64,000 nt of DNA. It comes from Alphaproteobacteria bacterium. Its GTDB lineage: Bacteria; Pseudomonadota; Alphaproteobacteria; SMXQ01. The DNA is taken from positions 42,515 to 106,514 of the forward strand of contig DASYCO010000055.1 in NCBI GenBank assembly GCA_036500145.1, in the 5' to 3' direction. The notes under the pieces were generated by a model that made no database searches, was not told where the DNA came from, and saw only the letters and a program-made list of their open reading frames with translations. Shown piece after piece: positions 1-56,065 of the stretch. Every line of letters starts with the position of its first letter. The stretch's first letter is position 1. Made by a program: the position numbers and the translations under genes.

Positions 1-611
1 TCTAACAGACTTTGGGCATCCGTTAAGAGATATGGACGCGTTACGAGGGGGCCATGCTTCTCAGTACTCCGTGTTAAAAGTTCGTCCGCGGTTTCACGTT
101 CAATATTTCTATCAAAATCTGCACCAAGATACTTTTCAGTAATTACGGCTGTAATATCGTCTGCCACGCGATCATGAAGCTCATCCGCGGTGGAATAATA
201 GCTAAGAGTAGATCGCGACGACGCGTCATCGATCATAACCTGAAGGCGCTGATCACGACTGTCTGACGAGCGCAATATATAAAAAATGGTATCGATCTTA
301 AGGTCGCGCGCGTATCGAAACTCGTCCTCGAGTCCCGATATATGCATCCCGTTAGCATCGTCGATGTAGCCATAACCGTCGCGATAGAATGCCACCATAA
401 TCTGCGACGCACGCAACTCGGAGAGATACAACTCGCGCGCCGGGTAGGGGCGAGCCCCTACATGTTCAAATAATACTGGTGTGTGCCTTATCTGATTGAT
501 TGCAGCTCGAGCAACCTTGCGCTCATCGCTACATTCTTGCAGCCGCGAACTGACAAAAATCCTTAGCTTGCTTTGAACGGCGTGGCGAGTGATCCCCTTA
601 GACGGCACCAT
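1..611 (-). CDS. DUF4062-like (TIR/flavodoxin-like N-terminal domain) protein, N-terminal about 203 aa only; gene continues beyond window start
   Basis: Minus-strand ORF not in the supplied track because it runs off the left edge. ATG is the reverse complement of 609..611. Translation begins MVPSKGITRHAVQSKLRIFVSSRLQECSDERKVARAAINQIRHTPVLFEHVGARPYPARELYLSELRASQIMVAFYRDGYGYIDDANGMHISGLEDEF..., which fits the DUF4062 pattern (FxSS..(D/E)L..ER........I..........FE.......E.Y...L..CD.(F/Y)). It overlaps the stop of the upstream gene by 14 nt, consistent with coupling. Confidence 0.5.
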   Translation of the reverse strand, partial: MVPSKGITRHAVQSKLRIFVSSRLQECSDERKVARAAINQIRHTPVLFEHVGARPYPARELYLSELRASQIMVAFYRDGYGYIDDANGMHISGLEDEFRYARDLKIDTIFYILRSSDSRDQRLQVMIDDASSRSTLSYYSTADELHDRVADDITAVITEKYLGADFDRNIERETADELLTRSTEKHGPLVTRPYLLTDAQSLL

Positions 612-1716
612 AACCTCGACGATCGTAGAAGGCCTGAAGTGAGCTGAATTTTTTGAATTGGTGAAGATCGGCGCCGTCACGCGTTACCAATTCAGTAATA
701 TCGGCCCTGATTTGAGTGCAGGTGGCATCTAAGGAAGGTAGCGACGGTATTGATTTGCCATCGGCATACTCAACGCGATCCTCAATATGCTTCCAGATCG
801 TGTCGCGATACTTTTCATCTAAGGTTGCGTAATGCGGCGTGCCGTCACAAAGCTCCACACTAAGCATAAGATTTATCGCCGCCTGCTCAATCTGGCTACG
901 GCCGACAGTTTTGAAACCGGGGATTGCTTGTATAGAATCGACAAGGAGAGCCCGTCTAATGCGTTCGCGTGTGACGGGAAAAGCGGTGTCGATCGTCCGT
1001 CGCCTAGCGGCTGCATACTCGCGCGGTGACGGTTTTGGAGAAGCCGGACCGGCACCACCTGGCGGTCGTGTACGTTTTGCACGCGGATCGACCAACCAAT
1101 GATTGGGATCTTCTTCTTCTGTTCGTATTTTGATGTTGAATTTGATTATCGACGGAAGCCCTTCGATCCGCCCAATATTTTCTGGAATAAGTGGCGCACC
1201 TTTTGCGGGAAGTGTTGCAGCGCTGAGCACGACTGGTCCCAGTCCCGAATCACAATGTGACTTAAGCTGATGGAGGAAGGAATTTGTTGTGTCGTACTCT
1301 TTAATCCAAAACTGGCTAAGAAAAAGAGGCCGGGTTAATTGATGAGGGCCGAGCCGAAATATTGCTCGATCCGCCTCGGGTGAAATAACAAGAAAATATT
1401 TTCCATCTTTCTTAAGCAGAATTTGTAGATCGACAACCTCTCCGTCGGCTTCACAGCCCCATTTCTCGAAACTTTTGAATGCCGCGCGCATGGGTTCAGC
1501 GTTACGACAGACTAAACTTAGCCAGGGTACCGCACCTGGGTAGCCAGTAAGTCCGCCTAAAGCATAAGCGCAGCCGACAACCTCCGCCTTATGTAAGGCG
1601 GAGGCGAAACTGACGTCTGGTAAAAGGATTACGCCCTGTTGATCTCCGAGATCAAAGCCCCGGTTTTTATTCGTTCGATCTTTAGGAGTAACGCGGTGTT
1701 TGTTCTTTTTCCCCAA
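598..1716 (-). CDS. hypothetical protein (372 aa), no recognisable domain; upstream partner of the DUF4062 gene
   Basis: Single long ORF in a roughly 50% GC region. Its stop (598..600) overlaps the start (611) of the downstream DUF4062 ORF. No motif I can assign. Confidence 0.5.
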   Translation of the reverse strand: MGKKNKHRVTPKDRTNKNRGFDLGDQQGVILLPDVSFASALHKAEVVGCAYALGGLTGYPGAVPWLSLVCRNAEPMRAAFKSFEKWGCEADGEVVDLQILLKKDGKYFLVISPEADRAIFRLGPHQLTRPLFLSQFWIKEYDTTNSFLHQLKSHCDSGLGPVVLSAATLPAKGAPLIPENIGRIEGLPSIIKFNIKIRTEEEDPNHWLVDPRAKRTRPPGGAGPASPKPSPREYAAARRRTIDTAFPVTRERIRRALLVDSIQAIPGFKTVGRSQIEQAAINLMLSVELCDGTPHYATLDEKYRDTIWKHIEDRVEYADGKSIPSLPSLDATCTQIRADITELVTRDGADLHQFKKFSSLQAFYDRRGYGAV

Positions 1717-1737
1717 TGTCGCTCCCCCGTAACTGTC

Positions 1738-2242
1738 TTAAAGCAATTCTCCAGCCACGTTTTCCACGAACAATTCCCCATCGCGAATATAGCGCTGGAG
1801 CATGGCGTCAGATCTGTGTCCAGTTTGCGCACGAATTTTTGCATACGAGACACCAGCGGCGGCGGCACTAGTAACTAAACCTGCGCGGAGAGAATGCCCC
1901 GAATACGTCTTGCTGTCATAGCCTAGGGCCTGCACCCGTCTTTTAACAATACTGTTAACGGCATTTGCAGATAGTCGTGCATTCATTACAGCACCGTATC
2001 GGTTTACCGCCCGAAATTGGACCAGTCGCTATCCCGGCAGTTGAAAGCCAAGCGTAAAGCGCAGTTACGGGACAAGCTGACGATCTGCCGTATGGTATTC
2101 CTATCGATCTGCCGCGCCCTTCTTGGTCTGTTTTGCTTCGGCGCAGTTTGATAATTATGCCCTGCCTTACATTTTCGACATCATCGATATTCAATCCGAC
2201 GAGTTCGCTTCGCCGGAAAGCGCCAGAAAATCCTATCAACAA
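1738..2242 (-). pseudogene. int: tyrosine recombinase / phage-type integrase remnant (C-terminal catalytic domain only, split by a frameshift)
   Basis: Two overlapping minus-strand ORFs, 1955..2242 and 1738..1986. Together they carry integrase catalytic motifs: an R...ELxxL box, HSLRAG (the HxxR motif), and a C-terminal RYIRDGE containing the catalytic Tyr. There is no room for an N-terminal domain, since an upstream stop and the tRNA fragment and res gene follow within about 500 nt. Confidence 0.7.
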
Positions 2243-2566
2243 GACGGCTCGATCTCTAATCGCGAGCGGACTACTGCCGATTTCGTTAGATATTCGATTT
2301 GGGCGGGGTCCTCCAAATTAACCACATCCACATCGCAACCTGCGCTGCTGGCGAGGCCTCAAAGACGCTAGCCGCACTGAAAGCCAGCCCCGCAACACGT
2401 CTGGCGAAAGGCTCCAATTATCAGCAGTTGATGCTGATCCAAGTGTAGTTTGCAATTTCCATATGGCCGAATTATGCGGTCGAGGACTCAGTTAAAACTA
2501 ACAATATATTGATACCCGTCTCGGCAGATCCGAGATGTCTAGGAGCAAAAAACTATTCGCCTGCTT

Positions 2567-2612
2567 TTTCGTAATCAGTAGGTCCGCGGTTCAATTCCGC
2601 AAGCCGACACCA
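2567..2612 (+). repeat. 3' fragment of tRNA-Thr (anticodon loop through CCA); att-site remnant
   Basis: The sequence ttcgtaatcagtaggtccgcggttcaattccgcaagccgacacca matches the 3' 46 nt of the intact tRNA-Thr(CGT) at 55991..56065 with 2 mismatches. No 5' half (no acceptor-complement) is found upstream, so it is not a complete tRNA gene. Confidence 0.7.
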
Positions 2613-2748
2613 TCCTCCCCACGAAAATATCTAGGTTTTTCGACCAGAGCGTTTATCCACCTGAGGGTTCTTGACCCCTTTAACGAAATTGGTGGACGCA
2701 TAGCGTGCAAAAATATGTGCCGCAAATCCACCCTTCAGGTCAGCGGGC

Positions 2749-5433
2749 CTACGAATACTGCTTGAGCAGGAATTCCAGAGTCATGTTCTCGACAATCGTG
2801 TCGTGCGGGATAAGAGCATATTGCCAAGGTTTACCCCCGTATGATCGCGCGTGTTCGCTTGCCCAGGTGCACCATTGCAAAGCCACCTCGCGTTTCGCCA
2901 GCACGTCCTTGTCCTGCATCTGGGTCGCCATCTTCGGCTCCAGCATCAGGATTTTGTCTTCGGTCTCGGCGACGAAATCCGGTTGATACTCCGCATGGTC
3001 GTTGCCGTTACGATAGAACATCTGAAACTGCCCCTTCGCAGGCCGCAGCCATTTTTGCGCTTCACGCTCCAAGATCACTGCGAGTTTTCGTTCCGAGTCA
3101 GAATGAAATTTCGTCACGTTTGAAAGGCACTTGGAGAAGCCCCCAAACAAGTATCGAGCCATATTGCTCTTGTCCGCAGGCGGCACGCGATAATCCAGCG
3201 GCGCTTCTCGCAGAGCGGTGTAGGCGCTCTCCTTAAGTTCGGTGAATCCTTGCCGAACCTCATGATGATATTCGACCGCCTCATCCTTCCAGAAGTGGGC
3301 CTGCATCTGGGCATGAACAGCGCGGGCGATTTCGCGTTGATGCAGAGCGAGAACCTGGCTCGCCTCCTGTTCGGAGAGATAGCCCAACAGGTGTCGAACC
3401 ACCTGACCCGCCAGCTCGTAGAGCTGATCTGCGTGCTCGTCATAGGCGATGTCGGAGAAATCAATCAAGCCGCTAACGACATAGTCCTCAAGGTGTTCTT
3501 CAAGAAAGTTTCCTGGCGACAAGCCGATAATATCGACTTGGTCAGTCCGCAAATGCTTCGCCCAAAGTTCCTCGCTCGGCGCTGGGTAACGCACGCCCGA
3601 CAGATCAAGCGTGAAGGGCTTGAAGCCCGCCTTGACCTCTCCCTTAGGCATCACCGTGATGCGGGGAATATCAATCGTGCGCTCGACCATTAGTTTTGCG
3701 GTTGCTGCAATAACAGCCGCCATATCCGGTGCTGGCCTCGCCACGCCCTCAAGTTCCATCTGCTCGGGCTCGGGCTGGTACTGCTTCTGCACCTCACGGA
3801 CGACCTGTGCCTGCACTTCGGGCCGCGACAGATAGGAGACGCTCGGAACTTTGTCTGGTTCGCGCGCAAGTTTACGGAACGCATCATACGCCAGCCGCGC
3901 AACGCGCATCTCGTCGGGATCAGAAAATGCGGGCGTCGGGGAGGGACCAGAAGCCGTTGCGCTGTCTGCTCCTGGCGCGGACTGCAAACCGAGACTGCCC
4001 AGGATTGTTGGCGACGACACGACCGTCACCGTTTTACGCTCTAGATCGGCCTCTTCGAGTACCAGTTGCTTCAAGCGGACGGGAGAGTTGGGATTGTTGG
4101 CTTCGTCCACAATTTCCTGGAATCGGTCATGCGCAACAATATTGAGCCTGTCCACGGCGGTAACGCCCGTGCGTCTTCCGTAGGGCAGACGAAGGCCGCG
4201 CCCGATGCTCTGCTCGATAAGCGTTCGCGCATTGGCTGCGCGCAATGGGATGATCGTATAGAGGTTGGTGACGTCCCAACCTTCTTTGAGCATGTTGACG
4301 TGGATGACGATCTCGACCGGATTGTCGTTCTGTTCAACGGTCAACAGTTTCTCGATCGTCTCTTCTTCTTTCACGCTTGAATCGACCTGGATGACCTTAT
4401 CCGCGTAGCGAGCCTTGAAGAACGCCTCAGACTGAATCAAAGCCATCAACTCGGCTGCGTGGGTCGTGTCACGAGCGATCACGAGCACAAACGGCTTGAC
4501 GATGCGCACACCGTTTTCGCGGGCATATGTTTCCAAATCGACCTTCACGCTCTCATGAAGGCGAATGCCGTCTTCAAGCTTCAGAGTCTGGATTGCTTCT
4601 GGCGAGTTGCCCGCCGGATTGAAATCCCTCCGCGTGACGACAGCAGGCTCCTTGACGAAGGCATCCTCCATCGCTCGGGCGAGAGGGTAGTCGTAGATGA
4701 CATTACGAAACGCGACAGGACCGCGCGGGCTCTCGACGAACGGAGTTGCTGTCAGCTCAAGGCCGAGTATCGGCTTCAATTCGTTGATCGCCCGCATCCC
4801 TGCGGTTGCCCGATAGCGGTGCGACTCGTCCATCAGCAAAACGAGGTCCGGCAGGCTTGCCAGATAGTCGAAATAGCTCTCACCGATCTCTTCACGGAAG
4901 GAACGGATACGCGGCGAGCGCCCGCCGCGAACCTCGGACGAAATCTTGGCGATGTTAAAAATGTTGATCGTGGTGGGGAAAAGCGAACCACCTGATGCGA
5001 TCTGTCTCTCATAGGTTTCACCCGTCGTCAGAACGGGCGGCGAAATGGCAAATTCCGAAATTCCCTTGAACACATATTTCGGTGTGTTTGGCCTGAAGTC
5101 GGCAATCAGCTTGTTGTAGATGGTGAGGTTCGGAGCTAGCACGAAGAAATTGTCGATACCGTGCGCGACCTTCAAGTAGGTGATGAAAGCGCCCATCAAC
5201 CGCGTCTTTCCAACACCCGTTGCCAACGCGAAGCAAAGCGAGGGAAATTCGCGCTCAAAGTCCGCGACGCCTGGAAATTCACTTCGGATCACTTCCAGCG
5301 CTGAGGCCAAGTCCACAGATTTATTCGGCGGCGCAATTTCTGTGACGCGGTGGAGAATTTCGAGGCTACGACGCTGCGGCTGGCGCAAGCTCAAGCGACC
5401 CGAGATTGCGTTGACGTGACGAAGGGTGCTCAT
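2749..5433 (-). CDS. res: Type III restriction enzyme Res subunit (SF2 helicase-endonuclease), 894 aa
   Basis: Helicase motif I ATGVGKT, motif II LMDESH (DExH), TATP, and motif VI QSIGRGLR, in a ResIII-type N-terminal arrangement. It sits immediately downstream of a beta-class adenine MTase with a 4-nt ATGA overlap. Confidence 0.85.
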   Translation of the reverse strand: MSTLRHVNAISGRLSLRQPQRRSLEILHRVTEIAPPNKSVDLASALEVIRSEFPGVADFEREFPSLCFALATGVGKTRLMGAFITYLKVAHGIDNFFVLAPNLTIYNKLIADFRPNTPKYVFKGISEFAISPPVLTTGETYERQIASGGSLFPTTINIFNIAKISSEVRGGRSPRIRSFREEIGESYFDYLASLPDLVLLMDESHRYRATAGMRAINELKPILGLELTATPFVESPRGPVAFRNVIYDYPLARAMEDAFVKEPAVVTRRDFNPAGNSPEAIQTLKLEDGIRLHESVKVDLETYARENGVRIVKPFVLVIARDTTHAAELMALIQSEAFFKARYADKVIQVDSSVKEEETIEKLLTVEQNDNPVEIVIHVNMLKEGWDVTNLYTIIPLRAANARTLIEQSIGRGLRLPYGRRTGVTAVDRLNIVAHDRFQEIVDEANNPNSPVRLKQLVLEEADLERKTVTVVSSPTILGSLGLQSAPGADSATASGPSPTPAFSDPDEMRVARLAYDAFRKLAREPDKVPSVSYLSRPEVQAQVVREVQKQYQPEPEQMELEGVARPAPDMAAVIAATAKLMVERTIDIPRITVMPKGEVKAGFKPFTLDLSGVRYPAPSEELWAKHLRTDQVDIIGLSPGNFLEEHLEDYVVSGLIDFSDIAYDEHADQLYELAGQVVRHLLGYLSEQEASQVLALHQREIARAVHAQMQAHFWKDEAVEYHHEVRQGFTELKESAYTALREAPLDYRVPPADKSNMARYLFGGFSKCLSNVTKFHSDSERKLAVILEREAQKWLRPAKGQFQMFYRNGNDHAEYQPDFVAETEDKILMLEPKMATQMQDKDVLAKREVALQWCTWASEHARSYGGKPWQYALIPHDTIVENMTLEFLLKQYS

Positions 5434-7064
5434 GATGCATCGCCTTCATCAAAGAGGTTCGATTGAGATGCCTTTGGAGTCTTCGCCACATGCGGCAGAT
5501 TAGCGACGTTGAGGCTGTAGTCATCATGACCCCATTCGCAGCGAGTGCGAATGTGATTTGGAATTTTGCGAACTGTAATGTTCGACCACAGGTCGGCATT
5601 GCCTCGGTAAGCAGCGCACAGAATCAGCAAGGAGCGTCCTTCTCCAACTTCCTCGCTGAGCGCAGCTAACTCCTGCGGCCCCAAGGTCTGAGTAGTGACG
5701 TAGAAGAAATCGCTCTCGGACGAATGCCCCTGCTGCCAGTACACGCTTTCGCTTGGCGCATAGGTAAAGCCCTCCAGTTTGCACAAAGCCTGCGCTAGCA
5801 TGGCGGGGTTATACTTCTTCGAGATAACCTCACGGCCCCACTTGTCCTTTTCGAGGAGCGACGTTGCAAGCTCATAGTACCGGAATCCACCTCCGCCTTT
5901 CCAATCGACCAACTTGCTAACGCCACCTTCGTCGGCTCCGTCGATTACCTTTCGAAGGCGCGGAACGATATGTGTGGTGCAGTGTTCGCCAAGTTCTACC
6001 ATCACCCAACGACGGCCCATCTTATGAGCCACCGCTCCTGTAGTGCCAGATCCAGCAAATGAATCGAGCACGGTGTCACCAGGCAGCGTCGCCACCTCTA
6101 AAACACGCTGGATGATCTTCTCAGGCTTCGGCGTATCGAAGGTCTTCTCCCCTTGGAAAATTCCCTTCATTTCGGCGCTGGCATTTCGGGTGCTGCCCGC
6201 AAATTCATACGGCCACCAAGTCTGGGGAACAACGCCGTCTTTGACCTCACTTAAAAACTTCTTTTCGACGGGAAACTCTGCGTTCCCATCTTTGCCCCAG
6301 TAGATTCGCTTCTCCGCTTTCAACTTCTTCAACTCGTCCGGCGGCCTTCGCCACGAACTTCCTTTCGGCGGCCACACCTCGCGGCCAGCGTTATTGATCA
6401 AGGCGTAGTTGTCTCTCTCGCGAAATTCGGCTCGTGTGAGCGGGGTGCCCAACCAAGGCCCACGACTGTCACCATCAAGATTTTTGTAATTGGCGATCTG
6501 CTTTTCACTTCGTGGAATTAGATACGGCCTCCATGACTCGGATTTCTTGAACACGAGAACCATGTTGTGAGTTTGCGCGATCGTCGATGCATTATTTCCT
6601 GGTGTATCCTTCGACTGCCAAACGATATTTGCGACGAAGTTCGATCGTCCGAATATCTCGTCGCACAAAACCTTCAGATAGTGCGCCTCGTTGTCGTCGA
6701 TCGTGATCCACAGCGATCCGTCATCAGACAAAAGTCGGCGCATAATCTCTAATCTGTCGCGCATCAAACCGAGCCAAATTGAATGCTCTAGGCCATCGTC
6801 ATAGTGAGCAAATGCGCTGCCTGTGTTGTAAGGTGGGTCGATCAAGACGCACTTCACCTTGCCTGCGTAGTCGGCCTCTAGCGCTTTGAGCGCCAGCAGA
6901 TTGTCACCGTGGATTAGAACATTGTCGAAGATGTCGTCTTCGCCCCGACAAGCGGTGGAATGGTAGCTCTTCTCGGCATCCTCAATGAGAATACGAGGCT
7001 CCAAGCTCGGCCTGTTTTCTTTCCCGACCCATGTCAATTCGAGTTTTTGCTTCTTAGCCATCAT
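5430..7064 (-). CDS. mod: Type III restriction-modification Mod subunit (N6-adenine DNA methyltransferase, beta class), 544 aa
   Basis: Motif IV IDPPYNT lies N-terminal and motif I DSFAGSGTTG lies C-terminal, the beta-class order typical of Type III Mod. Coupled to res through the ATGA overlap. Confidence 0.85.
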   Translation of the reverse strand: MMAKKQKLELTWVGKENRPSLEPRILIEDAEKSYHSTACRGEDDIFDNVLIHGDNLLALKALEADYAGKVKCVLIDPPYNTGSAFAHYDDGLEHSIWLGLMRDRLEIMRRLLSDDGSLWITIDDNEAHYLKVLCDEIFGRSNFVANIVWQSKDTPGNNASTIAQTHNMVLVFKKSESWRPYLIPRSEKQIANYKNLDGDSRGPWLGTPLTRAEFRERDNYALINNAGREVWPPKGSSWRRPPDELKKLKAEKRIYWGKDGNAEFPVEKKFLSEVKDGVVPQTWWPYEFAGSTRNASAEMKGIFQGEKTFDTPKPEKIIQRVLEVATLPGDTVLDSFAGSGTTGAVAHKMGRRWVMVELGEHCTTHIVPRLRKVIDGADEGGVSKLVDWKGGGGFRYYELATSLLEKDKWGREVISKKYNPAMLAQALCKLEGFTYAPSESVYWQQGHSSESDFFYVTTQTLGPQELAALSEEVGEGRSLLILCAAYRGNADLWSNITVRKIPNHIRTRCEWGHDDYSLNVANLPHVAKTPKASQSNLFDEGDAS

Positions 7065-8905
7065 TGTCCTGCTGCGCTGCCTGCTTGGGCCTGCGTCGTG
7101 TTAGGTGTTGTCCAAATTTCTGCCTTCAGCGCGTCCAGCAGAATCTTGCAGTCGCCTTGCGTTTTGAAAACGGATTGAAAGTCGCGGGGAGAGCGCAAGG
7201 TCTGCACGCCTCCAGGTGCGACTTCATAGCTGGCGAAGCCTTTTGCCACGCTGATAGCGAGCAGTTTTTCGGCATAGTCCGTCACCGCTGCGGCAAGCGC
7301 CGCCTTCTCTTCAGCGGACAGGGTGAGAGCCTCTCCTTCTTCAGGCTTCAATCGGTTGAAGATGGCAGCGAGAACCACCCAACGCGCATTGCCGAAGAAC
7401 GATTTACTGGCGCCCATGCTCGCCCGTGCGGTGTCCTGAATGACTTGAAGCACAATTCGTTGCGATTGAACTGCGCGCCACACCGAACGCGCCGACAGAT
7501 TTGGCGGAAAAACATGTTCGTGACGGCTCCGAAGCAATTCCTCGGCTGGAAACACCATCTCTAGTGAGCGAAGTGAATCCCGATTGGCCGCCACGCGAGT
7601 GACGAGATCACAGTCATTCGTGTTTTTCAAACAGGCGCAGGCTGTCAGCGCCTCTTCCATGTTAAAGTTGTCTTGGTCGTTGTCTGGCGTATCTTCGTCG
7701 ATCTTGTAGTGATAGTCGACCTTATGCGGCTGAAGCGTGCGAAAGACCTGTTCGTGAAATTCATAGGCTCCGGCGAAGTCTTTTAATCCGACATGGTTTT
7801 GAAAATTCGCCGTTCGCGAAATGCGGTCGGCGAACACTCTGTCATCCTCGCACTTCTCAAGTGAAATAATTTTTATGAATGCAAAGCCAGTTGGCTTCGC
7901 GTCCGCCTTCGCTCCGTCGAAACATTTGACGATGGAGCCAAGAGTCTGTGCGCCGTTGATGATGGCAAAACCCTTCGCGGTAATCCGCTTTTTCTCTGCG
8001 TTGGTCCGATCTAGGTTGTTCAACTCCAAGCGGTCACAGTAGGCCGTAAGGCCATTGTTGAGATAGAAGAACAGGTCAGCTTCTTCGCTGATCGTCTTTT
8101 GAATCTCCTCATTGACGTCAGTGCGTCCCTTAAACCCTCGAAGATTTGCCGCCACTAATCGCTTCCCATGCGCGCGATGGAGGGCGTCGAGTCTCTCCAA
8201 GGAGACGAGCCCGTAGATCGTCTCGTGTGGCTTCGTGATCAAACCGGGGCAGATAATTTCAAGATCGACCGTATCGACACCGAGCGCTTCGCCGCCACCC
8301 GTGACCCAGTCGTTCAACGTGGTGAGATTGATTGAATGAAACTGAAAAAAGTCATCATCCGCGTCCTTTGAGACTTTCTTCTTGAGAGCCTCAAACAGCC
8401 GCTTCCGATCCTCGGAAATCAACGCCAAACCGGAGTAGCACAGGACCGCGCGAACACGAGTCGAGGCATTTTTCAGATGCGTCTCGATCTGTGGCAAGAT
8501 TTTCACCCAATGAGGGTTCGCCGCGAACGCCTTAAAGTTTCCCGCGAGCAAGTATTCCACGCCCGCGTTGAACTTGGTTACGTCACCCAAGTCCGGTTCG
8601 GTCAGCCCCGCATGAATGTACTTGGCTTGGACAAGCCACAACGTGTTAGTCGCGGGAGAAAAATAGACCCCGTCAATTCCGCCATCTCCCCCGCCGTCAA
8701 CCACAGAAATGGCCGCATCCGCGATCGATGCTCCGCCAAGCCTGTGTGCTGTAAACGCGGAGAGGGCGCGACTGAGGAAGTCACGCTCAAGCTGCTCGGC
8801 GTCCCCATTGGTCTTCTGCGGAACGTGCCCGTCGAACAAGGCGTGCAGTTTTGGTGGCAGGGCCAGTATTTCGACGGGACGATCCGGCATTACGCAATGT
8901 TCCAT
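7061..8905 (-). CDS. AIPR-family (abortive infection phage resistance) protein, 614 aa; alternative start at 8890
   Basis: GGGDGGIDGVYF and IINGAQT motifs, size about 600 aa, embedded in an RM operon. All of this is as I recall for Pfam AIPR, a family described as frequently found in RM operons. Its stop and the mod start form an ATGA overlap. Confidence 0.6.
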   Translation of the reverse strand: MEHCVMPDRPVEILALPPKLHALFDGHVPQKTNGDAEQLERDFLSRALSAFTAHRLGGASIADAAISVVDGGGDGGIDGVYFSPATNTLWLVQAKYIHAGLTEPDLGDVTKFNAGVEYLLAGNFKAFAANPHWVKILPQIETHLKNASTRVRAVLCYSGLALISEDRKRLFEALKKKVSKDADDDFFQFHSINLTTLNDWVTGGGEALGVDTVDLEIICPGLITKPHETIYGLVSLERLDALHRAHGKRLVAANLRGFKGRTDVNEEIQKTISEEADLFFYLNNGLTAYCDRLELNNLDRTNAEKKRITAKGFAIINGAQTLGSIVKCFDGAKADAKPTGFAFIKIISLEKCEDDRVFADRISRTANFQNHVGLKDFAGAYEFHEQVFRTLQPHKVDYHYKIDEDTPDNDQDNFNMEEALTACACLKNTNDCDLVTRVAANRDSLRSLEMVFPAEELLRSRHEHVFPPNLSARSVWRAVQSQRIVLQVIQDTARASMGASKSFFGNARWVVLAAIFNRLKPEEGEALTLSAEEKAALAAAVTDYAEKLLAISVAKGFASYEVAPGGVQTLRSPRDFQSVFKTQGDCKILLDALKAEIWTTPNTTQAQAGSAAGQ

Positions 8906-11748
8906 CGGATCGTGAAAAGGCTCTCGGCTGAAATGCTTTGCTCGAGCTTCCCTTCAATACTCGCAATCAGCTCGGAGCGCTGAGCGTCGATGCGATCTTG
9001 TGCATCGAAGAGTGTACGACGCTTGCTGTTCCGTTCCGTCTCTAACGCCTTGACGACCTTCTGCCCAGCGAGCTTCTCTTCTAGCGACAACGCCGCTGTC
9101 GCTGCGCGACGCGCTTCCTTGATCTGGCGATCAATCTCCTTGATCTCACGCTCTAGCCCAACCTTGAGGTCATCCGCCCAACCGTCCAATTTATCGGCTT
9201 CCTGCTCAAAGAACCGCGCATTGCGCTCGGATATGGCTCGACGAATTTGGGTTTGCTGCGTTGCTATCGATTGCGTGAGGATTGGAGTCACCGACGCAGG
9301 TGGCAAAGCGGGCTGAGAAACCGAGCCAGCTATGGTCAGCAGGCGAGTTGCCGCCTCTGCGCTTAGCGCGGCGCCTTCGTCCGTTGTACCTGCGAGCAAC
9401 AAATGGTCTTCGCTCTGACCAAGCGCCTCAACCGATAGTAAGGACACGGCTAACCAACCCGATTTTCCCACAAGTGGCTCGATCTGGGAAATTCGCCCTT
9501 CGTGGTTGGAATAGTCAAAGATCAGCTCAGCCGAGGGCAGCTCACGAGCAAGAGCACGCTGCACGATGGCCTCGCCTAGCGGGTGCTGAATGCGAAACAA
9601 GTGCGCCTCGCCAGTACGCCTAGGAAGCTCGTAAAGTCCCGTCGGAACGCCCTCACGGTCCACCCAATTAGGAATTAGGTTCAGCCTGAAAGACGATGTG
9701 TCGAGAAACTCGGCGTCATCAGCCAATTCATACGCCGCGAGCTTCATAAGCTGCTGCTCAAAGTGGCTGAGATGTAGCTTCGTGTCCTCATTCCGAAGTC
9801 TCAGCTTCTCGCGAACCTCATCATCGAAATTCTCGAACAGCTTTCGGCGTGCGTGCGTCATCGCCTCGTTGATCTCAAGATTCAGCTCTTGCTGGAGCTG
9901 ATCGAACGCGGACTTGATTTCTGCTGTCTTCCGGCACTGCTGATAGATTCCCGCAATGCGCTTCTCGAAATCGACCCCAGACTCGATGGCGCCAAGCACC
10001 TCATCGCTGGCTCCAAATACGCCTTCGAATAGCTGAAACTTCTCCGACAGGAGTTCGTAAACGCGTTGGTCTGCCTCATTTTTCTGATTAAGGAAGTTGA
10101 CGACAACAACATCGTGCTTCTGACCGTATCGGTGGCAACGGCCAATTCGCTGCTCGATACGTTGCGGATTCCATGGAAGGTCGTAATTGACGACCATAGA
10201 GCAGAATTGAAGGTTGATGCCTTCTGCGCCCGCCTCGGTCGCAATCATAATCCTTCCCTGCTCGCGGAAATAATCGACCAACGCGGAGCGCATATCTGCG
10301 GTCTTTGAGCCCGTGACTCGATCGGACCCCTCGTGACGAGACAACCATTCTTTGTAGATCGCTTTGGATTCTTCATCGGTATTCGTCCCGTTGAAGAGCA
10401 CGATCCGATCGGAAAACGGGCTGTCCCCGAGGACACGAAGCAAATAGGACTGAGTTTTACGAGACTCCGTAAAGACGATTGCTTTCTCGTCCGCGCCGAA
10501 CTCTCTCGCCTTCGCAAACCCCATTTCCAGAGCCTTGAGCAAGGCCCGGCCTTTGGCGTTCTGCTCAATAGAGGTTGCGAGGGCGGCAAACTCACGAAGT
10601 TCGGCAATCTCGGTTTCGAGCGCACGCTGGTCCGCCTCAGTCAGCAGTTCCTCGTCGTCGTCAGGCCACTCTTCCGCCGTTTGATCGAGCGCTTCGTAGT
10701 CTTCGTCGAGTTCCTCGGCCAGCGACTGCGTCGGTCTGCTCTTATCGAGCCGCTTTTGAAGTCGATTTGAAATTGATGAGAGAGCGCCCGCGATAGCGAA
10801 TGTGGATGAAGCCAGCAGCTTGCGAAGCACGAGCGTCATCAGAGAGCGCTGACTCGCAGGGAGAGCCTGGAGGTTGTCTCGCTGCAAGTATTCCGTGACT
10901 AGGTTATACAGTCGGTCTTCTTCTTCATCGGGGCTAAACTCCTCAAGGATGGCATGGCGTTTTGTATAAGGGACGTATGCCGTCACTTGTCGGCGCAATG
11001 TTCGGTGACAAATCGGCTTCAATCGCTCTCGCAGAATCTCAAACGTCCGCTCTTGTGAGAGATTGGCGAACTGTTCACGGAAGCTTTTCAGGTCGCCAAA
11101 AGCGTGCTCATCGATGAAGCTCACTAAGCCAAAAAGTTCCAGCAGCGAGTTTTGCAAAGGCGTCGCCGTCAGCAGCAGCTTGTGCCGCTCAGCAAGCGCC
11201 CCTTTTAGAGTGTTGGCGATCACGTTTGAGGGTTTATAGACGTTTCGCAGCCTATGAGCCTCATCAATTACTACCAAATCCCACGGGTGAGCGTGAACGT
11301 CTGCCGCCTTGTTGCGGGCAAATTGGTAGGAGCAGATCACTACGCTGTCCGCGCAGTCGAAAGGTCGGAAATGACCTGACTTTATGGCCGCGTTGTACGA
11401 TTTGGATTCGAGGATCGTGCAGGGGATGAAGAACTTCTCGTTCATCTCTTGATGCCACTGCTTGCGAAGGTTGGACGGGGCGATGATGAGCATGCGCCGC
11501 CTTCCCTCCGCCCAGCTCTGGGAGATGACGAGCCCCGCTTCAATCGTTTTGCCCAGGCCGACTTCGTCCGCCAGCAACGCGCCCTTTGACAGCGGCGATG
11601 CAAAAGCAAAGAGCGCGGCATCCACTTGGTGCGGATTCATATCGACCTGAGCGCCCGCGACGGCCACGGCCAACCGCTCGCTGCTATCGGAAGAACGGCG
11701 GCGCGTTAGATCACTGGCAATGTATTTGGAATGGTAGGCTGTGATCAC
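8890..11748 (-). CDS. SNF2-family (Swi2/Snf2) DNA-dependent ATPase/helicase with about 390-aa uncharacterised C-terminal extension ending in a coiled coil, 952 aa
   Basis: Motif I LADEVGLGKTIEAG, motif II VIDEAHRLRN, TATPLQNSL, C-terminal helicase lobe FTESR and QRIGRCHRYGQ. GTG start overlapping the stop of the RHH gene (GTGA). Its stop overlaps the AIPR start. Confidence 0.8.
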   Translation of the reverse strand: MITAYHSKYIASDLTRRRSSDSSERLAVAVAGAQVDMNPHQVDAALFAFASPLSKGALLADEVGLGKTIEAGLVISQSWAEGRRRMLIIAPSNLRKQWHQEMNEKFFIPCTILESKSYNAAIKSGHFRPFDCADSVVICSYQFARNKAADVHAHPWDLVVIDEAHRLRNVYKPSNVIANTLKGALAERHKLLLTATPLQNSLLELFGLVSFIDEHAFGDLKSFREQFANLSQERTFEILRERLKPICHRTLRRQVTAYVPYTKRHAILEEFSPDEEEDRLYNLVTEYLQRDNLQALPASQRSLMTLVLRKLLASSTFAIAGALSSISNRLQKRLDKSRPTQSLAEELDEDYEALDQTAEEWPDDDEELLTEADQRALETEIAELREFAALATSIEQNAKGRALLKALEMGFAKAREFGADEKAIVFTESRKTQSYLLRVLGDSPFSDRIVLFNGTNTDEESKAIYKEWLSRHEGSDRVTGSKTADMRSALVDYFREQGRIMIATEAGAEGINLQFCSMVVNYDLPWNPQRIEQRIGRCHRYGQKHDVVVVNFLNQKNEADQRVYELLSEKFQLFEGVFGASDEVLGAIESGVDFEKRIAGIYQQCRKTAEIKSAFDQLQQELNLEINEAMTHARRKLFENFDDEVREKLRLRNEDTKLHLSHFEQQLMKLAAYELADDAEFLDTSSFRLNLIPNWVDREGVPTGLYELPRRTGEAHLFRIQHPLGEAIVQRALARELPSAELIFDYSNHEGRISQIEPLVGKSGWLAVSLLSVEALGQSEDHLLLAGTTDEGAALSAEAATRLLTIAGSVSQPALPPASVTPILTQSIATQQTQIRRAISERNARFFEQEADKLDGWADDLKVGLEREIKEIDRQIKEARRAATAALSLEEKLAGQKVVKALETERNSKRRTLFDAQDRIDAQRSELIASIEGKLEQSISAESLFTIRWNIA

Positions 11749-12002
11749 CCCTTACGCTCCTCGCGCATCGGGCGCTTCCGGTTCACATGATTGTTGGCTT
11801 GGTTACTACCAGCCACATGCACGCGCATAAACTCACGAATGACTTGAACCCCGGGTCGATCCTGCGCGCGGCAGGTTTCAAGAAACTTCTCTCGAAGTTC
11901 TCGCTCCACTCTAATGCGCAGCCCCGAATTTTTCATCATAGGCGAAGTGTATCCAGTGGATACACCGTCTACTAGCAAAAGCGCATAGCCCCCCAAGCCC
12001 AT
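11745..12002 (-). CDS. small ribbon-helix-helix (CopG/Arc-like) DNA-binding protein, 85 aa; first gene of the defense operon
   Basis: Core LRIRVERELREKFLETCRAQDRPGVQVIREFMRVHV has the beta-strand / helix / G-turn / helix pattern of RHH repressors. Its stop overlaps the SNF2 start. Confidence 0.45.
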   Translation of the reverse strand: MGLGGYALLLVDGVSTGYTSPMMKNSGLRIRVERELREKFLETCRAQDRPGVQVIREFMRVHVAGSNQANNHVNRKRPMREERKG

Positions 12003-12289: not shown

Positions 12290-12853
12290 ATGCCCAAACT
12301 TACCGACACGCAGCTCGTAATTCTTAATGCCGCAGTCGGGCGTGACAGCAAGGCTGTCCTGCCGCTGCCTAAATCCCTCAAAGTGAATAAGGGTGCTGCG
12401 ACTAGCGTCCTCAACGCATTACTGACGAAAGGATTGATCGAGGAACAGCCGACAAAGCTGCGCGCGGGAGTCTGGCGCCAGGACCAAATCGGACAGCGTT
12501 ACCTGCTCACGATTACCGACACAGGTATGGCCACCCTGGATAGCGGTCCGGCATCAACAATCAAGAAGCCGCCTGCTGCCTCCGCGAAAAATAGGACACA
12601 GACGCAACGCGGCACTGAACAAGGCAAGCCGGTTAATGAAGGCGCGGCAAACAAACGCCCGACCGGCAAACTCGCCACGATCCTCGGATTACTCCAGCGT
12701 TCTAAAGGCGCTCCCCTTGTCGAACTCGAGAAGGCAACTGGCTGGCAGCCTCATAGCGTACGCGCCGCCATGACGGGCTTGCGTAAGCGCGACATTGTTA
12801 TTCAGCGCGAAAAGCAAAATGGCGTCACCCGGTATCGCGTGGCGACTGCTTAA
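12290..12853 (+). CDS. DUF3489 domain protein
   Basis: Carries the GWQPHSVRAAMTGL...RYRV signature region of DUF3489 family proteins, which accompany DUF2924 and serine recombinase genes in alphaproteobacterial mobile elements. Confidence 0.7.
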   Translation: MPKLTDTQLVILNAAVGRDSKAVLPLPKSLKVNKGAATSVLNALLTKGLIEEQPTKLRAGVWRQDQIGQRYLLTITDTGMATLDSGPASTIKKPPAASAKNRTQTQRGTEQGKPVNEGAANKRPTGKLATILGLLQRSKGAPLVELEKATGWQPHSVRAAMTGLRKRDIVIQREKQNGVTRYRVATA

Positions 12854-12864
12854 GCGAGGTCAGC

Positions 12865-13266
12865 ATGGATATCTCGATGCTGGCCGACCTCCCGCGTGCG
12901 CATCTGGTTACACGCTGGCAAACGCTGTATGGCGCTCCGCCACCCAAAGGGATGAGCCAACGCTTGATGATCGGGGCTCTCGCCTATGCCCAGCAGGCCA
13001 AGCAGCAGGGCGGCGCAAGCGCCACCCTGTCACGTCGGCTCGCAAAGCTGATTGCCGGGACGCCGATTAGCGAGGCTCCCGCCCCACGAGTGCTTAAATC
13101 TGGCGCTCGCCTGGTGCGAGAGTGGAATGGCAAAACCCATACTGTTGAGGCTGTCGAGAACGGCTTCATCTGGAAGGGCACGCACTTCCGCTCGCTCTCA
13201 GCGGTGGCGCGAGCCATCACAGGAGCGCGCTGGTCAGGCCCGCGATTCTTTGGAATCGATACATGA
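12865..13266 (+). CDS. DUF2924 domain protein
   Basis: RWQTLYGAPPPKGMSQRLMIGALAYAQQ matches the DUF2924 N-terminal signature. Its stop overlaps the recombinase start (13263). Confidence 0.7.
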   Translation: MDISMLADLPRAHLVTRWQTLYGAPPPKGMSQRLMIGALAYAQQAKQQGGASATLSRRLAKLIAGTPISEAPAPRVLKSGARLVREWNGKTHTVEAVENGFIWKGTHFRSLSAVARAITGARWSGPRFFGIDT

Positions 13267-14930
13267 GCGTCCGTTCGATCCCCTGCGCGATCTATACCCG
13301 CAAGTCGACGGACGAGGGCCTCGATCAAGCCTTCAATTCACTCGACGCCCAACGCGCCGCCTGTTCCGCTTACATCCGCAGCCAAGCTAGCGAAGGCTGG
13401 ACGGAAATCAAAACCCTCTACGATGATGGCGCTCAGTCAGGCGGGACGATCGAGAGACCAGCTCTCAAGCGGCTGCTCGCTGATGTCGCGGCCGGCCGCG
13501 TAAAGGTCATCGTGGTCTACAAGGTCGATCGGCTAACCCGTTCGCTAGCAGATTTTGCCAAGATCATCGAGATCCTGGAGGCCCATGATGCATCCTTCGT
13601 CTCGATCACCCAGCAGTTCAGCACAACTACGTCTATGGGGCGCCTCACCCTCAACGTGCTGCTGTCCTTCGCCCAGTTCGAGCGGGAAGTCACCGCCGAA
13701 CGCATCCGCGACAAAATCGCCGCCTCAAAGAAAAAGGGCATGTGGATGGGCGGCGTGATCCCTCTCGGTTACGACGTGCGTGACCGCAAACTCCTCATCA
13801 ATGAAGCTGAAGCTAAAACCGTTCAGACTATCTTCGAGCTCTATCGCAAGCATACCAATACCCGTCTCGTAAAAGACGCGGCAGATCGACTGGGGCTTAG
13901 AACCAAAGAGTTTGTCCTCGTAACCGGCCGTCGCAAAGGTGGCCGGCCCTTTACCCGCGGTCACATCAACAAGATCCTGATCAACCGGCTCTACATCGGC
14001 GAGATCACGCATAAGGACATGAGCTATGCTGGCGAACATGCTCCGATCATTGATCGCGCCCACTGGGATGCTACCCAGGCCCAACTTACGCGGAATGCCG
14101 TGGTGCGACGCACGGGGTCGAATGCGCGCGAACCGAGCCTGCTCACTGGCCTCGTGAAAACTGGAGATGGCGCTCGGCTTGTCCCATCACACACCAGCAA
14201 AGGCGGACAGCGTTATCGATATTACATCACAAAGTCTGAGGAAACAGGCGGCCCCCGTCCTTGGCGGTTGCCGGCGCCAGCTCTGGAGAAGCTAGTCATC
14301 AATGGGATCGACAACTTTCTGTTGGATCGCCAGCGTATCGCGGAGGCAATCGGCACAGAGATGCCCGTGGATAGCATGGAGCCTGTTTTTGCCCAGGCGG
14401 CCGTCATGGCTGCAGATCTACGCGCGCCCGCTTCAGCAGCGCTCCGAGAAAAGCTCCTTCATATTCTGCAAGGGAGCGTGATTGACCAGGAGCGGCTTTG
14501 CATCACTCTGAACGCTGAAGCACTCCATAAACGACTCGGCATCTCAGACCTTACGGCCACCAAGGACATCATCATCACGCTGCCAATCTCGCTCCGGCGG
14601 CGCGGTATCGAGGTCCGCTTCGTCATCGAGAACTCAGGCCAGCCAATCAAGCCCGATGAAAAGCTGATCGAGCTCGTGGTCCAGGCCCATCGCTGGTTTA
14701 ACGACCTCAAAACCCGCCCGAATGTTCGTCTTCGCGAACTCGGGAAACGTGACGGCGCAGACCGTGGCGACATCAGCCGCATCCTGCCACTGGCATTTCT
14801 GGCACCCGACATCGTCGAGGCGATCCTCAATGGACGCCAGCCGCCTGAACTGACGGCCGCCCGCCTCAAACGGATGCCCGATCTGCCGCTAGATTGGCAG
14901 CAACAGCGGCGATATCTCGGGTTCGAATAG
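13263..14930 (+). CDS. large serine recombinase (resolvase/invertase-type catalytic domain plus recombinase domain), 555 aa
   Basis: N-terminal IYTRKSTDEG holds the catalytic Ser, followed by VDRLTRS, a long recombinase domain and a C-terminal extension. Lies next to the tRNA-Ala island boundary. Confidence 0.85.
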   Translation: MSVRSIPCAIYTRKSTDEGLDQAFNSLDAQRAACSAYIRSQASEGWTEIKTLYDDGAQSGGTIERPALKRLLADVAAGRVKVIVVYKVDRLTRSLADFAKIIEILEAHDASFVSITQQFSTTTSMGRLTLNVLLSFAQFEREVTAERIRDKIAASKKKGMWMGGVIPLGYDVRDRKLLINEAEAKTVQTIFELYRKHTNTRLVKDAADRLGLRTKEFVLVTGRRKGGRPFTRGHINKILINRLYIGEITHKDMSYAGEHAPIIDRAHWDATQAQLTRNAVVRRTGSNAREPSLLTGLVKTGDGARLVPSHTSKGGQRYRYYITKSEETGGPRPWRLPAPALEKLVINGIDNFLLDRQRIAEAIGTEMPVDSMEPVFAQAAVMAADLRAPASAALREKLLHILQGSVIDQERLCITLNAEALHKRLGISDLTATKDIIITLPISLRRRGIEVRFVIENSGQPIKPDEKLIELVVQAHRWFNDLKTRPNVRLRELGKRDGADRGDISRILPLAFLAPDIVEAILNGRQPPELTAARLKRMPDLPLDWQQQRRYLGFE

Positions 14931-14999: not shown

Positions 15000-15113
15000 A
15001 GCCCCGCGATCCTCCTTCTCGACCAATAGATTTGGTCTCCGCACGGGAAAACCCCCAGAAATCCGGGGGTTTTCGCGAAATCTCTAAGCTTAGAGAAAGG
15101 AGCAAGGGTGGAT

Positions 15114-15189
<76 letters not shown>

Positions 15190-55990: not shown

Positions 55991-56065
<75 letters not shown>

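What the first reader, a model, noticed from the sequence alone, without database searches (positions are those of the whole stretch)
2567..2612. Orphan 3' fragment of tRNA-Thr that matches the intact tRNA-Thr 53 kb away: an att-site scar next to the integrase pseudogene
The 46-nt stretch ttcgtaatcagtaggtccgcggttcaattccgcaagccgacacca equals the anticodon-loop-to-CCA portion of the tRNA-Thr(CGT) at 55991..56065, with 44 of 46 identical. It has no 5' half, so it is the direct-repeat product of site-specific integration into a tRNA-Thr gene. It sits between a decayed tyrosine integrase (1738..2242) and the Type III res gene. It therefore marks an internal junction of a composite island. One element to the left (tyrosine integrase and the DUF4062 pair) used tRNA-Thr as attB. 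The RM/SNF2/AIPR block and the serine-recombinase module lie to the right. The fragment is on the opposite strand from the intact tRNA-Thr, so either a different tRNA-Thr copy was the original target or an inversion separated them.
Basis: seen in the sequence. Interest (0 to 1): 0.55.

Follow-up and report, generated by a model that had tools for sequence, protein, structure and literature searches.

The report
Relic tRNA-Thr attachment site inside island
A 46-base leftover of a threonine tRNA gene is a dead docking-site scar of a mobile element, now buried inside a larger 26-kb anti-phage defence island that is itself inserted next to an alanine tRNA gene; this is an ordinary kind of genomic fossil.

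Summary
There is no 5' half, and chance expectation is zero. The block has the limits of an anticodon-loop attachment site: a provirus attR (L091) carries the same block.

The whole low-GC region is one ~26.4-kb defence island inserted at the 3' end of tRNA-Ala(CGC). It is flanked by 16/17-nt direct repeats and carries a large serine recombinase. A relative shows the empty site, and two others show the same island ends with different cargo. No tRNA-Thr exists at this locus or at the island's left end, so the fragment is not an in-situ scar.

The neighbouring integrase pseudogene is Cre-like and lacks about 130 N-terminal residues. In 80 other genomes this family is never next to a tRNA. It lies 1.5-7 kb inside tRNA-island ends, behind a separate canonical integrase.

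Best reading: this is a decayed, imported end of a tRNA-Thr-targeting island, with two G-to-A changes that each remove a predicted tRNA base pair, kept as junk cargo. It is a known kind of feature and of low interest.

The parts
2568..2613 (+). Orphan 3' fragment of tRNA-Thr(CGT): anticodon loop through CCA plus one base. It is 44/46 identical to the host gene, and both differences are G-to-A.
   Evidence: no tRNA called here
1738..2296 (-). Pseudogene of a Cre-like tyrosine recombinase. Only the C-terminal ~180 residues remain (homologue residues ~133-313). There is one frameshift near 2015, and the N-terminal ~130 residues are absent.
2297..2567 (.). 271-nt non-coding spacer, 50% GC, unrelated to the integrase family. 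It has no arm-type repeats and no match to any fetched locus. It may be a remnant of the element-side arm of the att site.
2614..2748 (.). 135-nt right flank, 50% GC. Only 0.3% of core 135-nt windows are this low, so it is island-like and does not look like host core DNA.
   Evidence: no similarity to the flank of the intact tRNA-Thr
2720..2735 (-). Inverted third copy (14/16, with an exact 11-mer) of the tRNA-Ala att core AAGGGTGGATTGGTGG. About 0.02 such sites are expected by chance. Its significance is unexplained.
   Evidence: (I12)
55991..56065 (-). Intact tRNA-Thr(CGT) in high-GC core DNA. It is the only other copy of the block in the window and is in inverted orientation.
15114..15189 (-). 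tRNA-Ala(CGC), the true anchor of the island. It is 100% identical in relatives with and without the island.
15104..15119 (+). Right-hand direct repeat (attR core), covering the last 6 nt of tRNA-Ala plus 10 nt downstream. The partner repeat lies at L089 7787-7803, which is 11.36 kb left of window base 1.
12290..14930 (+). Conserved right-end module of the island: DUF3489, DUF2924 and a large serine recombinase (weakly CcrB-like). It is 82-86% identical at DNA level in relatives L086 and L088.
2749..11748 (-). Defence cargo: Type III res and mod, an AIPR/AbiU-like gene and a DrmD-like SNF2 helicase.
1..1716 (-). Cargo downstream of the recombinase pseudogene: a 372-aa ORF (598-1716) and the start of a 1172-aa DUF4062-STAND-TPR protein that runs off the window. 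Together with the pseudogene and the fragment they form the lowest-GC block (~50%) of the island.

Best explanation
The 46-nt piece is a dead attachment-site relic. It is the anticodon-loop-to-3'-end block that tyrosine-integrase elements targeting tRNA-Thr(CGT) carry in attP and leave behind as a displaced fragment in attR or at tandem-array junctions. It was not made at this locus.

It belongs to the decayed end of a small island of the two-recombinase type: att site, canonical integrase, partner gene X, Cre-like recombinase, then defence cargo. An internal deletion removed the canonical integrase, X and the first ~130 codons of the Cre-like gene. What is left is the fragment, 271 nt of spacer, the truncated recombinase, a 372-aa ORF and a DUF4062-STAND-TPR gene.

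This remnant is now passive cargo in the variable middle of a ~26.4-kb defence island. That island is integrated at the 3' end of tRNA-Ala(CGC), most likely by its large serine recombinase.

Shown:
- the match and its limits;
- the absence of a 5' half;
- the island borders, the empty site and the variable cargo;
- the truncation of the recombinase gene;
- the position of this recombinase family in other genomes.

Inferred:
- that the remnant arrived by recombination or exchange between islands, or by integration of a circular element through another site;
- that the fragment has no present function;
- that the serine recombinase, rather than another enzyme, integrates the big island.
For: 1. 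The block limits equal an att block.
- Identity starts at the first base of the anticodon loop and ends one base after CCA.
- Provirus L091 has the same orphan block (one nucleotide different from the host tRNA), with a T7-like tail fibre gene and a muramidase gene on one side and a host SRAP gene on the other, as expected for an attR.
- L080 has a comparable orphan tRNA-Thr(CGT) fragment.
- Islander counts 2083 of 3919 islands with anticodon-centred att sites (PMC4383910).

2. The fragment is specific to this lineage. The best hits in 7.3 Gb of plasmids and 2.3 Gb of phages are only 82-91% identical, most over only part of the 45-mer, against 96% to the host gene.

3. It shows decay.
- Both differences are G-to-A, at positions that are G in both the host tRNA and L091, and each removes a predicted base pair.
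- There is no predicted RNA structure beyond shuffles (z = -0.15), no promoter-like site and no arm-type repeats.

4. It is internal to a tRNA-Ala island.
- GC is 50-59% across 1-15000 and 62-75% beyond.
- The left border lies at L089 7787-7803 and carries a 16/17-nt direct repeat of window 15104-15119.
- The empty site is seen in L092/L093.
- The same right end (L086-L088) and the same left end (L084) occur in related genomes, and L086-L088 carry different defence cargo.

5. Both flanks of the fragment are island-like in composition.

6. Comparative anatomy of the recombinase family.
- In 80 genomes, 11 have an orphan tRNA 3' fragment upstream of the recombinase on the opposite strand, which is the arrangement seen here.
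- 14 have an intact tRNA upstream on the same strand, at 1.4-7.8 kb.
- A different integrase sits next to the tRNA or fragment in 11 of 15 loci examined.
- Here only 271 nt remain between fragment and recombinase, and the recombinase N-terminus is missing.
Against: - No donor locus, meaning an intact island of this type at tRNA-Thr(CGT) in this lineage with the same cargo, was found.
- The five bases left of the anticodon loop (GCTTT) match only 2 of 5 positions of the expected anticodon-stem dyad (ACTGA). The site is therefore not an intact core, and the left limit could in principle be a deletion endpoint.
- I could not decide between a former attP, a tandem-array junction and an attR with a very short donor flank.
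- The route into the tRNA-Ala island is inferred, not observed.
- The inverted att(Ala)-like 16-mer 108 nt away is unexplained and may point to a history I have not reconstructed.
- Only about 36 kb around the island and 64 kb of the genome were visible, so a second tRNA-Thr(CGT) elsewhere cannot be excluded.
Confidence: 0.68

Rival explanations
1. One reading: the fragment is an in-situ scar. An element to its left integrated into a tRNA-Thr gene that lay at this chromosomal position. The fragment is the displaced host 3' end, and the intact partner is either another tRNA-Thr copy or the one 53 kb away, separated by an inversion.
For: The fragment is a correct att-type block. A tyrosine recombinase pseudogene is adjacent, in the orientation seen for fragment-proximal island ends in 11 other genomes.
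Against: - The empty-site relative has no tRNA-Thr between PNPOx and tRNA-Ala.
- No tRNA was found in the 19 kb left of the window. The island's left border is a repeat of the tRNA-Ala end.
- The right flank has 50% GC, as low as only 0.3% of core windows.
- The intact tRNA-Thr is inverted and lies behind ~40 kb of core genes.
- A single inversion does not give a canonical layout (my reasoning).
Confidence: 0.05
2. The fragment is the displaced host fragment (attR) of a donor genome, imported together with a short stretch of donor chromosomal flank. On this view the DNA to its right, up to about 2720 or 2748, is former host DNA rather than element DNA.
For: Arrangement 2 in relatives is fragment, canonical integrase, then Cre-like recombinase, with host DNA beyond the fragment. 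The near-identity to the host-type tRNA shows that the target was this lineage or a close one.
Against: The 135-nt right flank has 50% GC, which is atypical of this high-GC lineage. It has no similarity to the flank of the resident tRNA-Thr. Moving an attR with its flank needs an extra illegitimate step.
Confidence: 0.15
3. The fragment has no integrase origin. It is a partial duplication or ectopic copy of the resident tRNA-Thr gene, for example from illegitimate recombination, patch repair or reverse transcription of the tRNA, that happened to land in the island.
For: It is 96% identical to the resident gene. It carries the CCA end, which is also encoded in the gene. No cognate integrase is present.
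Against: The left limit coincides with the start of the anticodon loop, as in the attR of L091 and the fragment of L080. Identity continues one base past CCA, into gene flank. The fragment sits at the position, relative to the Cre-like recombinase, where 11 other genomes have tRNA fragments.
Confidence: 0.07
4. The fragment is still functional, either as a secondary landing pad (pseudo-attB or attP) for tRNA-Thr-targeting phages or islands, or as a tRNA-half-like RNA.
For: 33 nt of perfect identity to the real target remain, including the whole anticodon loop and the 3' anticodon-stem arm. Both Logan contigs break inside it, which shows it behaves as a repeat in assembly.
Against: - The 5' dyad arm is not conserved (2/5).
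- Two substitutions each remove a predicted tRNA pair.
- There are no arm-type repeats and no promoter or terminator consensus, and the fold energy equals that of shuffles.
- No intact cognate integrase is present nearby.
Confidence: 0.05

Closest known systems
Displaced tDNA fragments marking genomic-island ends (Islander principle; Williams 2002 anticodon-loop 'A' sublocation; Hudson et al. 2015, PMC4383910)
   Same: It is a 3' fragment of a tRNA gene that begins in the anticodon loop and runs to the gene's 3' end. It lies in foreign, low-GC DNA beside a tyrosine recombinase gene.
   Different: The orientation is opposite to the only intact cognate tRNA. The interval between the two is mostly core genome. 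The tyrosine recombinase lies outside that interval and is a pseudogene of a family that does not sit next to tRNAs. The fragment is nested inside an island anchored at a different tRNA.
attR of a prophage in tRNA-Thr(CGT): IMG/VR UViG_2832094715_000003 (L091)
   Same: It carries the same tRNA type and the same block (anticodon loop to CCA), one nucleotide different from the host tRNA of this window, and also has no 5' half.
   Different: In L091 the fragment separates phage lysis and tail genes from a host gene (SRAP) at high GC, which is a live-looking prophage border. Here both flanks are low-GC island DNA, and no phage genes or cognate integrase are present.
SCCmec-type islands integrated by large serine recombinases (CcrAB), and bimodular defence islands with exchangeable cargo such as pipolins (PMC11551731)
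   Same: This applies to the host island, not to the fragment. The island has a large serine recombinase at one end (weak CcrB similarity). It is inserted at the 3' end of a conserved gene and flanked by ~16-nt direct repeats. Its end modules are conserved, and its defence cargo differs between relatives.
   Different: The target is the last 6 nt of tRNA-Ala plus downstream sequence, not rlmH. The accessory genes are DUF3489 and DUF2924. There is no piPolB. Recombinase activity and excision were not tested. The comparison of direct-repeat length with SCCmec rests on my own knowledge.
Cre recombinase of phage P1 (closest solved structure to the neighbouring pseudogene's family)
   Same: The family profile matches Cre over almost its full length (E 1e-22). 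It is a simple two-domain tyrosine recombinase without an arm-binding domain.
   Different: Sequence similarity is remote. The family is chromosomal and lies inside tRNA-integrated islands next to a conserved partner gene X. Its target site and role are unknown, and the copy here is truncated and frameshifted.

Membership tests
tRNA gene | Complete cloverleaf: acceptor, D, anticodon and T arms | tested here: not met
   ARAGORN and Rfam (E<=1) call nothing at 2400-2700. The 5' half occurs only at 56036-56065.
Islander-type island end (intact tDNA plus displaced fragment) | A fragment of a tDNA that is present intact in the same replicon | tested here: met
   44/46 identity to tRNA-Thr(CGT) at 55991-56065.
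Islander-type island end (intact tDNA plus displaced fragment) | Fragment and intact tDNA in the same orientation | tested here: not met
   The fragment is on the + strand and the gene on the - strand. Islander rejects such pairs (PMC4383910).
Islander-type island end (intact tDNA plus displaced fragment) | The interval between tDNA and fragment is the island and contains its integrase | tested here: not met
   The interval 2614-55990 holds ~40 kb of high-GC core genes, including yggT, folD, argG and hem genes. The tyrosine recombinase pseudogene lies outside it.
Anticodon-loop (A-type) attachment site of a tyrosine integrase | An identity block from the anticodon loop to the 3' end of the tRNA gene | tested here: met
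   Identity starts at tRNA position 32 and ends one base after CCA. The same block is found in the attR of L091.
Anticodon-loop (A-type) attachment site of a tyrosine integrase | Dyad-symmetric core: both anticodon-stem arms flank the 7-nt loop | tested here: not met
   The left arm is GCTTT against the expected ACTGA, a 2/5 match. L080 keeps 5/5 and L091 3/5.
Anticodon-loop (A-type) attachment site of a tyrosine integrase | An adjacent cognate, arm-binding integrase and arm-type repeats | tested here: not met
   The only neighbour is a truncated Cre-like gene. There are no repeats in 2290-2760.
Site-specifically integrated island at tRNA-Ala (the host island) | Direct repeats at both ends, one of them overlapping the tRNA 3' end | tested here: met
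   L089 7787-7803 and window 15104-15119 match at 16/17. These are the only + strand copies in 36 kb.
Site-specifically integrated island at tRNA-Ala (the host island) | An empty site in a related genome | tested here: met
   L092/L093 have PNPOx, 13 nt, then tRNA-Ala.
Site-specifically integrated island at tRNA-Ala (the host island) | The recombinase catalyses integration and excision; a circular form exists | not testable with these tools
   The large serine recombinase gene is intact and terminal, but its activity is unknown.

The most novel reading that the evidence does not exclude
The Cre-like recombinase and its uncharacterised partner gene X may form a second recombination module. It would sit just inside the att end of tRNA-integrated defence islands in many phyla and would move or swap blocks of defence cargo between islands. 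On this reading, the tRNA-Thr fragment inside a tRNA-Ala island is a footprint of such a transfer of a whole island end, and inverted fragment/tRNA pairs like the one in L080 would be by-products of the same activity.
Probability: 0.1. Interest if true: 0.6.

Novelty: new member of a known kind. Interest (0 to 1): 0.27.

Why it matters
The fragment itself matters little. Displaced tRNA fragments are the standard footprint of integrase-mediated insertion, and this one is dead.

It is useful as a marker. It shows that the variable middle of a serine-recombinase defence island at tRNA-Ala has taken up the end of a different, tRNA-Thr-specific island. That is direct evidence of cargo flow between islands with different anchors.

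It is also a practical warning for island-finding software and assemblers. A tRNA fragment paired with the nearest intact tRNA would here define a false 53-kb 'island', and both Logan contigs of this strain break inside the fragment.

The comparative by-product may be worth a dedicated study: a Cre-like recombinase with a conserved partner gene lies 1.5-7 kb inside tRNA-island ends, behind a canonical integrase.

Tried and rejected
1. 'Convergent tRNA-Thr/tRNA-Ala with two back-to-back islands'. I built this model from the inverted 16-mer at 2720-2735. I rejected it once the left border and the empty site showed one island at tRNA-Ala and no native tRNA-Thr.

2. Single-inversion histories, either between the two tRNA-Thr copies or between two islands. 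Working them through on paper, none restores a canonical tRNA, island, fragment layout.

3. Walking left of the window.
- IMG/VR has no relative of the DUF5681 protein.
- The single metagenome scan returned a different but related contig, L084.
- The third homologue search gave P0241, which allowed the walk.

4. Flank homology. The region 2250-2760 has no match in any of the ~90 fetched loci or elsewhere in the window. The 372-aa protein has no match in plasmids.

5. A hidden RNA or tRNA at the left border of L084: nothing in Rfam.

6. Function of the fragment as RNA or as a regulatory site: no fold signal, promoter or terminator.

7. The inverted att(Ala)-like motif was looked for in relatives L084, L086 and L088 and not found.

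8. The cognate integrase of the fragment, and the donor locus, could not be identified.

Full report
**1. Observation**

Window 2568-2612 (+) reads TTCGTAATCAGTAGGTCCGCGGTTCAATTCCGCAAGCCGACACCA. ARAGORN finds two tRNA genes in the window: tRNA-Ala(CGC) at 15114-15189 (-) and tRNA-Thr(CGT) at 55991-56065 (-).

The fragment equals positions 31-75 of the 75-nt tRNA-Thr gene sequence (standard tRNA positions 32-76), from the first base of the anticodon loop to CCA, with two mismatches. BLAST adds the base after CCA, giving 2568-2613 against 56035-55990 at 44/46.

No match is expected by chance: 0 of 100 shuffles gave one. The 5' half of the tRNA occurs only in the real gene. Neither ARAGORN nor Rfam at E<=1 sees a tRNA at 2400-2700.

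Both differences are G-to-A. By the standard cloverleaf assignment, which I read from the sequence, one removes T-stem pair 49:65 and the other acceptor pair 2:71. The same positions are G in the host gene and in an independent fragment in L091. The changes are therefore derived, as expected for an unselected relic.

**2. Surroundings in the window**

GC is 50-59% across 1-15000 and 62-75% from 15001 to 64000. The low-GC part carries the following genes, almost all on the - strand:
- a 372-aa ORF at 598-1716;
- a tyrosine recombinase pseudogene;
- the tRNA-Thr fragment;
- Type III res (2749-5433) and mod (5430-7064);
- an AIPR/AbiU-like gene (7061-8905);
- a DrmD-like SNF2 helicase (8890-11748);
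- on the + strand, DUF3489, DUF2924 and a 555-aa large serine recombinase (12290-14930).

tRNA-Ala follows at 15114. Beyond it lie core genes: yggT, DUF167, folD, argG, and further on a sulfatase, the tRNA-Thr, hemY and hemD. The intact tRNA-Thr is thus about 40 kb deep in core genome.

**3. Borders of the island**

The window is identical to JGI contig Ga0376653_0000617 and to two Logan contigs of run SRR11833507. Both Logan contigs end inside the fragment.

Walking left through the DUF5681 protein (P0241) gave L089, where window x equals L089 x minus 19145. From left to right it holds:
- core genes ccmF, ccmG, ccmH, cycH, pabC, pabB, a PNPOx-like gene and an EF-hand gene;
- the border;
- a ParB-methylase, DUF5681, a 331-aa ORF, an Mrr-type nuclease and the PDC-M01A/B (PtuA-like) pair;
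- the 1172-aa DUF4062-STAND-TPR gene and the 372-aa gene.

There is no tRNA in L089. At L089 7787-7803 the sequence AGGGTTGGATTGGTGG repeats window 15104-15119 (AAGGGTGGATTGGTGG). That window sequence is the last 6 nt of tRNA-Ala plus 10 nt downstream. These are the only + strand copies in 36 kb. The island is therefore about 26.4 kb, flanked by 16/17-nt direct repeats at the 3' end of tRNA-Ala.

**4. Relatives**

- Genomes with FolD 83-87% identical and an identical tRNA-Ala carry the same DUF3489, DUF2924 and serine recombinase module in the same place. DNA identity is 82-86% from window 12141 on.
- Their cargo differs. L086/L087 have HamA plus a helicase, and SIR2 plus a Piwi-domain protein. 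L088 has BrxR and an SbcCD-like pair.
- L084 shares the left end (90% identity), starting exactly at the repeat.
- L092/L093 (FolD 86% identical) show the empty site: the PNPOx stop codon, 13 nt, then tRNA-Ala, yggT, DUF167 and folD.

This is a family of integrative defence islands with conserved ends and exchangeable cargo. No tRNA-Thr belongs to this locus, which refutes an in-situ origin of the fragment.

**5. The neighbouring recombinase**

The pseudogene matches residues ~133-313 of ~317-aa 'site-specific integrases' at 60-69% identity. It has one frameshift near 2015. No trace of the N-terminal ~130 residues is found anywhere in 1501-3000. A full-length gene would have run through the fragment's position, so the present spacing is the product of a deletion or rearrangement at about 2296.

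The family's closest solved structure is Cre (E 1e-22, nearly full length). NCBIfam gives only weak, sub-threshold Xer-type hits.

In 80 genomes holding relatives:
- no tRNA lies within 1.3 kb of the gene;
- 14 loci have an intact tRNA of many isoacceptor types on the same strand, 2.5-7.8 kb upstream;
- a strict T-arm scan, which finds only the two true tRNAs in the window, finds 11 loci with an orphan tRNA 3' fragment upstream on the opposite strand, at 1.4-6.7 kb.

The second arrangement is the one seen in the window. In 11 of 15 loci examined, the ORF next to the tRNA or fragment is a different, canonical integrase: P4-like with an arm-binding domain, DUF6538-type, or another type. A conserved ~320-390-aa partner gene, which I call X, directly precedes the Cre-like gene in at least 12 loci. 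It is not related to the window's 372-aa ORF. Downstream cargo is defence-like: Type I RM, TIR, Mrr.

The window therefore looks like such an island end with the canonical integrase, X and the recombinase N-terminus deleted.

**6. Is the block an att site?**

IMG/VR holds one contig with the 33-nt shared core, L091. There an orphan block ATTCGTAATCAG...GCCGGCACCA, with no tRNA called, separates a T7-like tail fibre gene and a muramidase gene from a host SRAP gene. That is an attR of a prophage in the same tRNA type, with the same limits.

L080 (a Polaromonas MAG) has another orphan tRNA-Thr(CGT) fragment that starts at the anticodon stem-loop. It lies head-to-head, 2.8 kb from the intact gene.

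The Islander paper states the principle and reports 2083 of 3919 islands with anticodon-centred sites. It also rejects fragment/tDNA pairs in opposite orientation (PMC4383910).

Plasmid and phage collections contain nothing closer than 82-91%, most hits covering only part of the 45-mer. The fragment therefore derives from a tRNA-Thr of this lineage's type.

**7. Which kind of att relic?**

Both flanks are about 50% GC. Only 0.3% of core 135-nt windows are that low, and no core 271-nt window is. This favours mobile DNA on both sides, as in a former attP or a tandem-array junction, over an attR with donor chromosomal flank.

Several findings argue against present function:
- the left dyad arm is not conserved (2/5);
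- there are no arm-type repeats;
- there is no promoter or terminator consensus;
- the RNA fold is no better than shuffles (z = -0.15).

The lowest-GC block of the island runs from the DUF4062-TPR gene to about 2748 and is ~5.8 kb long. It is plausibly the imported remnant.

**8. Unexplained**

Window 2720-2735 is an inverted 14/16 copy, with an exact 11-mer, of the tRNA-Ala att core. It lies 108 nt to the right of the fragment. About 0.02 such sites are expected in the 36-kb composite. Relatives show none in the parts available. It may be chance, or it may be a trace of a serine-recombinase event.

**9. Verdict**

It is wrong on the history: there was no tRNA-Thr target here, the neighbouring recombinase is probably not the responsible enzyme, and the distant tRNA-Thr is not the partner.

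The fragment is a decayed, imported att relic nested in a tRNA-Ala/serine-recombinase defence island. It is a new instance of a well-known kind of feature, and of low interest in itself.

Noticed in passing
L089 7787 to window 15119 (window 1-15119 plus 11.4 kb to its left): A ~26.4-kb defence island lies at the 3' end of tRNA-Ala(CGC). It has 16/17-nt direct repeats, a conserved left end (ParB-methylase and DUF5681) and a conserved right end (DUF3489, DUF2924, large serine recombinase). Relatives carry other cargo: HamA with a helicase and SIR2 with a Piwi-domain protein in L086, and BrxR with an SbcCD-like pair in L088. One relative (L092) has the empty site.
   Followed up: yes
L004-L083 (80 genome loci), recombinase at about 8001-8900 in each: A Cre-like ~317-aa recombinase lies 1.5-7 kb inside the ends of tRNA-integrated islands and is transcribed inward. 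It sits behind a separate canonical integrase. In at least 12 loci it is directly preceded by a conserved ~320-390-aa gene with no Pfam or NCBIfam hit. It is followed by defence-type cargo: Type I RM, TIR, Mrr.
   Followed up: partly
window 2720-2735: An inverted 14/16 copy of the tRNA-Ala att core (AAGGGTGGATT exact) lies 108 nt to the right of the tRNA-Thr fragment, just before the res stop codon. About 0.02 such sites are expected by chance, and its meaning is unknown.
   Followed up: partly
L080 1350-1396 (-) and 4200-4275 (+): In a Polaromonas MAG, an orphan tRNA-Thr(CGT) 3' fragment with its own terminator lies head-to-head 2.8 kb from the intact tRNA-Thr(CGT). The intact gene is followed by an island that contains the Cre-like recombinase. 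This is a second inverted fragment/tRNA pair.
   Followed up: partly
L091 13965-14010: The provirus IMG/VR UViG_2832094715_000003 ends in an orphan tRNA-Thr(CGT) block (anticodon loop to CCA), between a muramidase gene and a host SRAP gene. This is a clean attR for the same tRNA type.
   Followed up: yes
window 2571 and about 2597 (ends of Logan contigs SRR11833507_687669 and _164902): Both short-read contigs of this strain stop inside the tRNA-Thr fragment. The 33-nt repeat breaks the assembly graph.
   Followed up: no
L089 5641-7793 compared with L084 6623-7907 and L092 8424-8928: The stretch between the pabB/PNPOx genes and the island's left repeat differs among relatives. This genome has PNPOx and an EF-hand gene, L084 has a 362-aa ORF, and L092 has only PNPOx, which directly abuts tRNA-Ala. 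This is a second small variable spot.
   Followed up: no
window 54001-56000: GC dips to 0.62-0.63 over the sulfatase gene immediately 3' of the intact tRNA-Thr. No repeat of the tRNA end was found in the window.
   Followed up: partly
window 7061-11748: A DrmD-like SNF2 helicase and an AIPR/AbiU-like gene are co-oriented and overlap with the Type III mod/res pair. This may be a single composite defence operon rather than separate systems.
   Followed up: no
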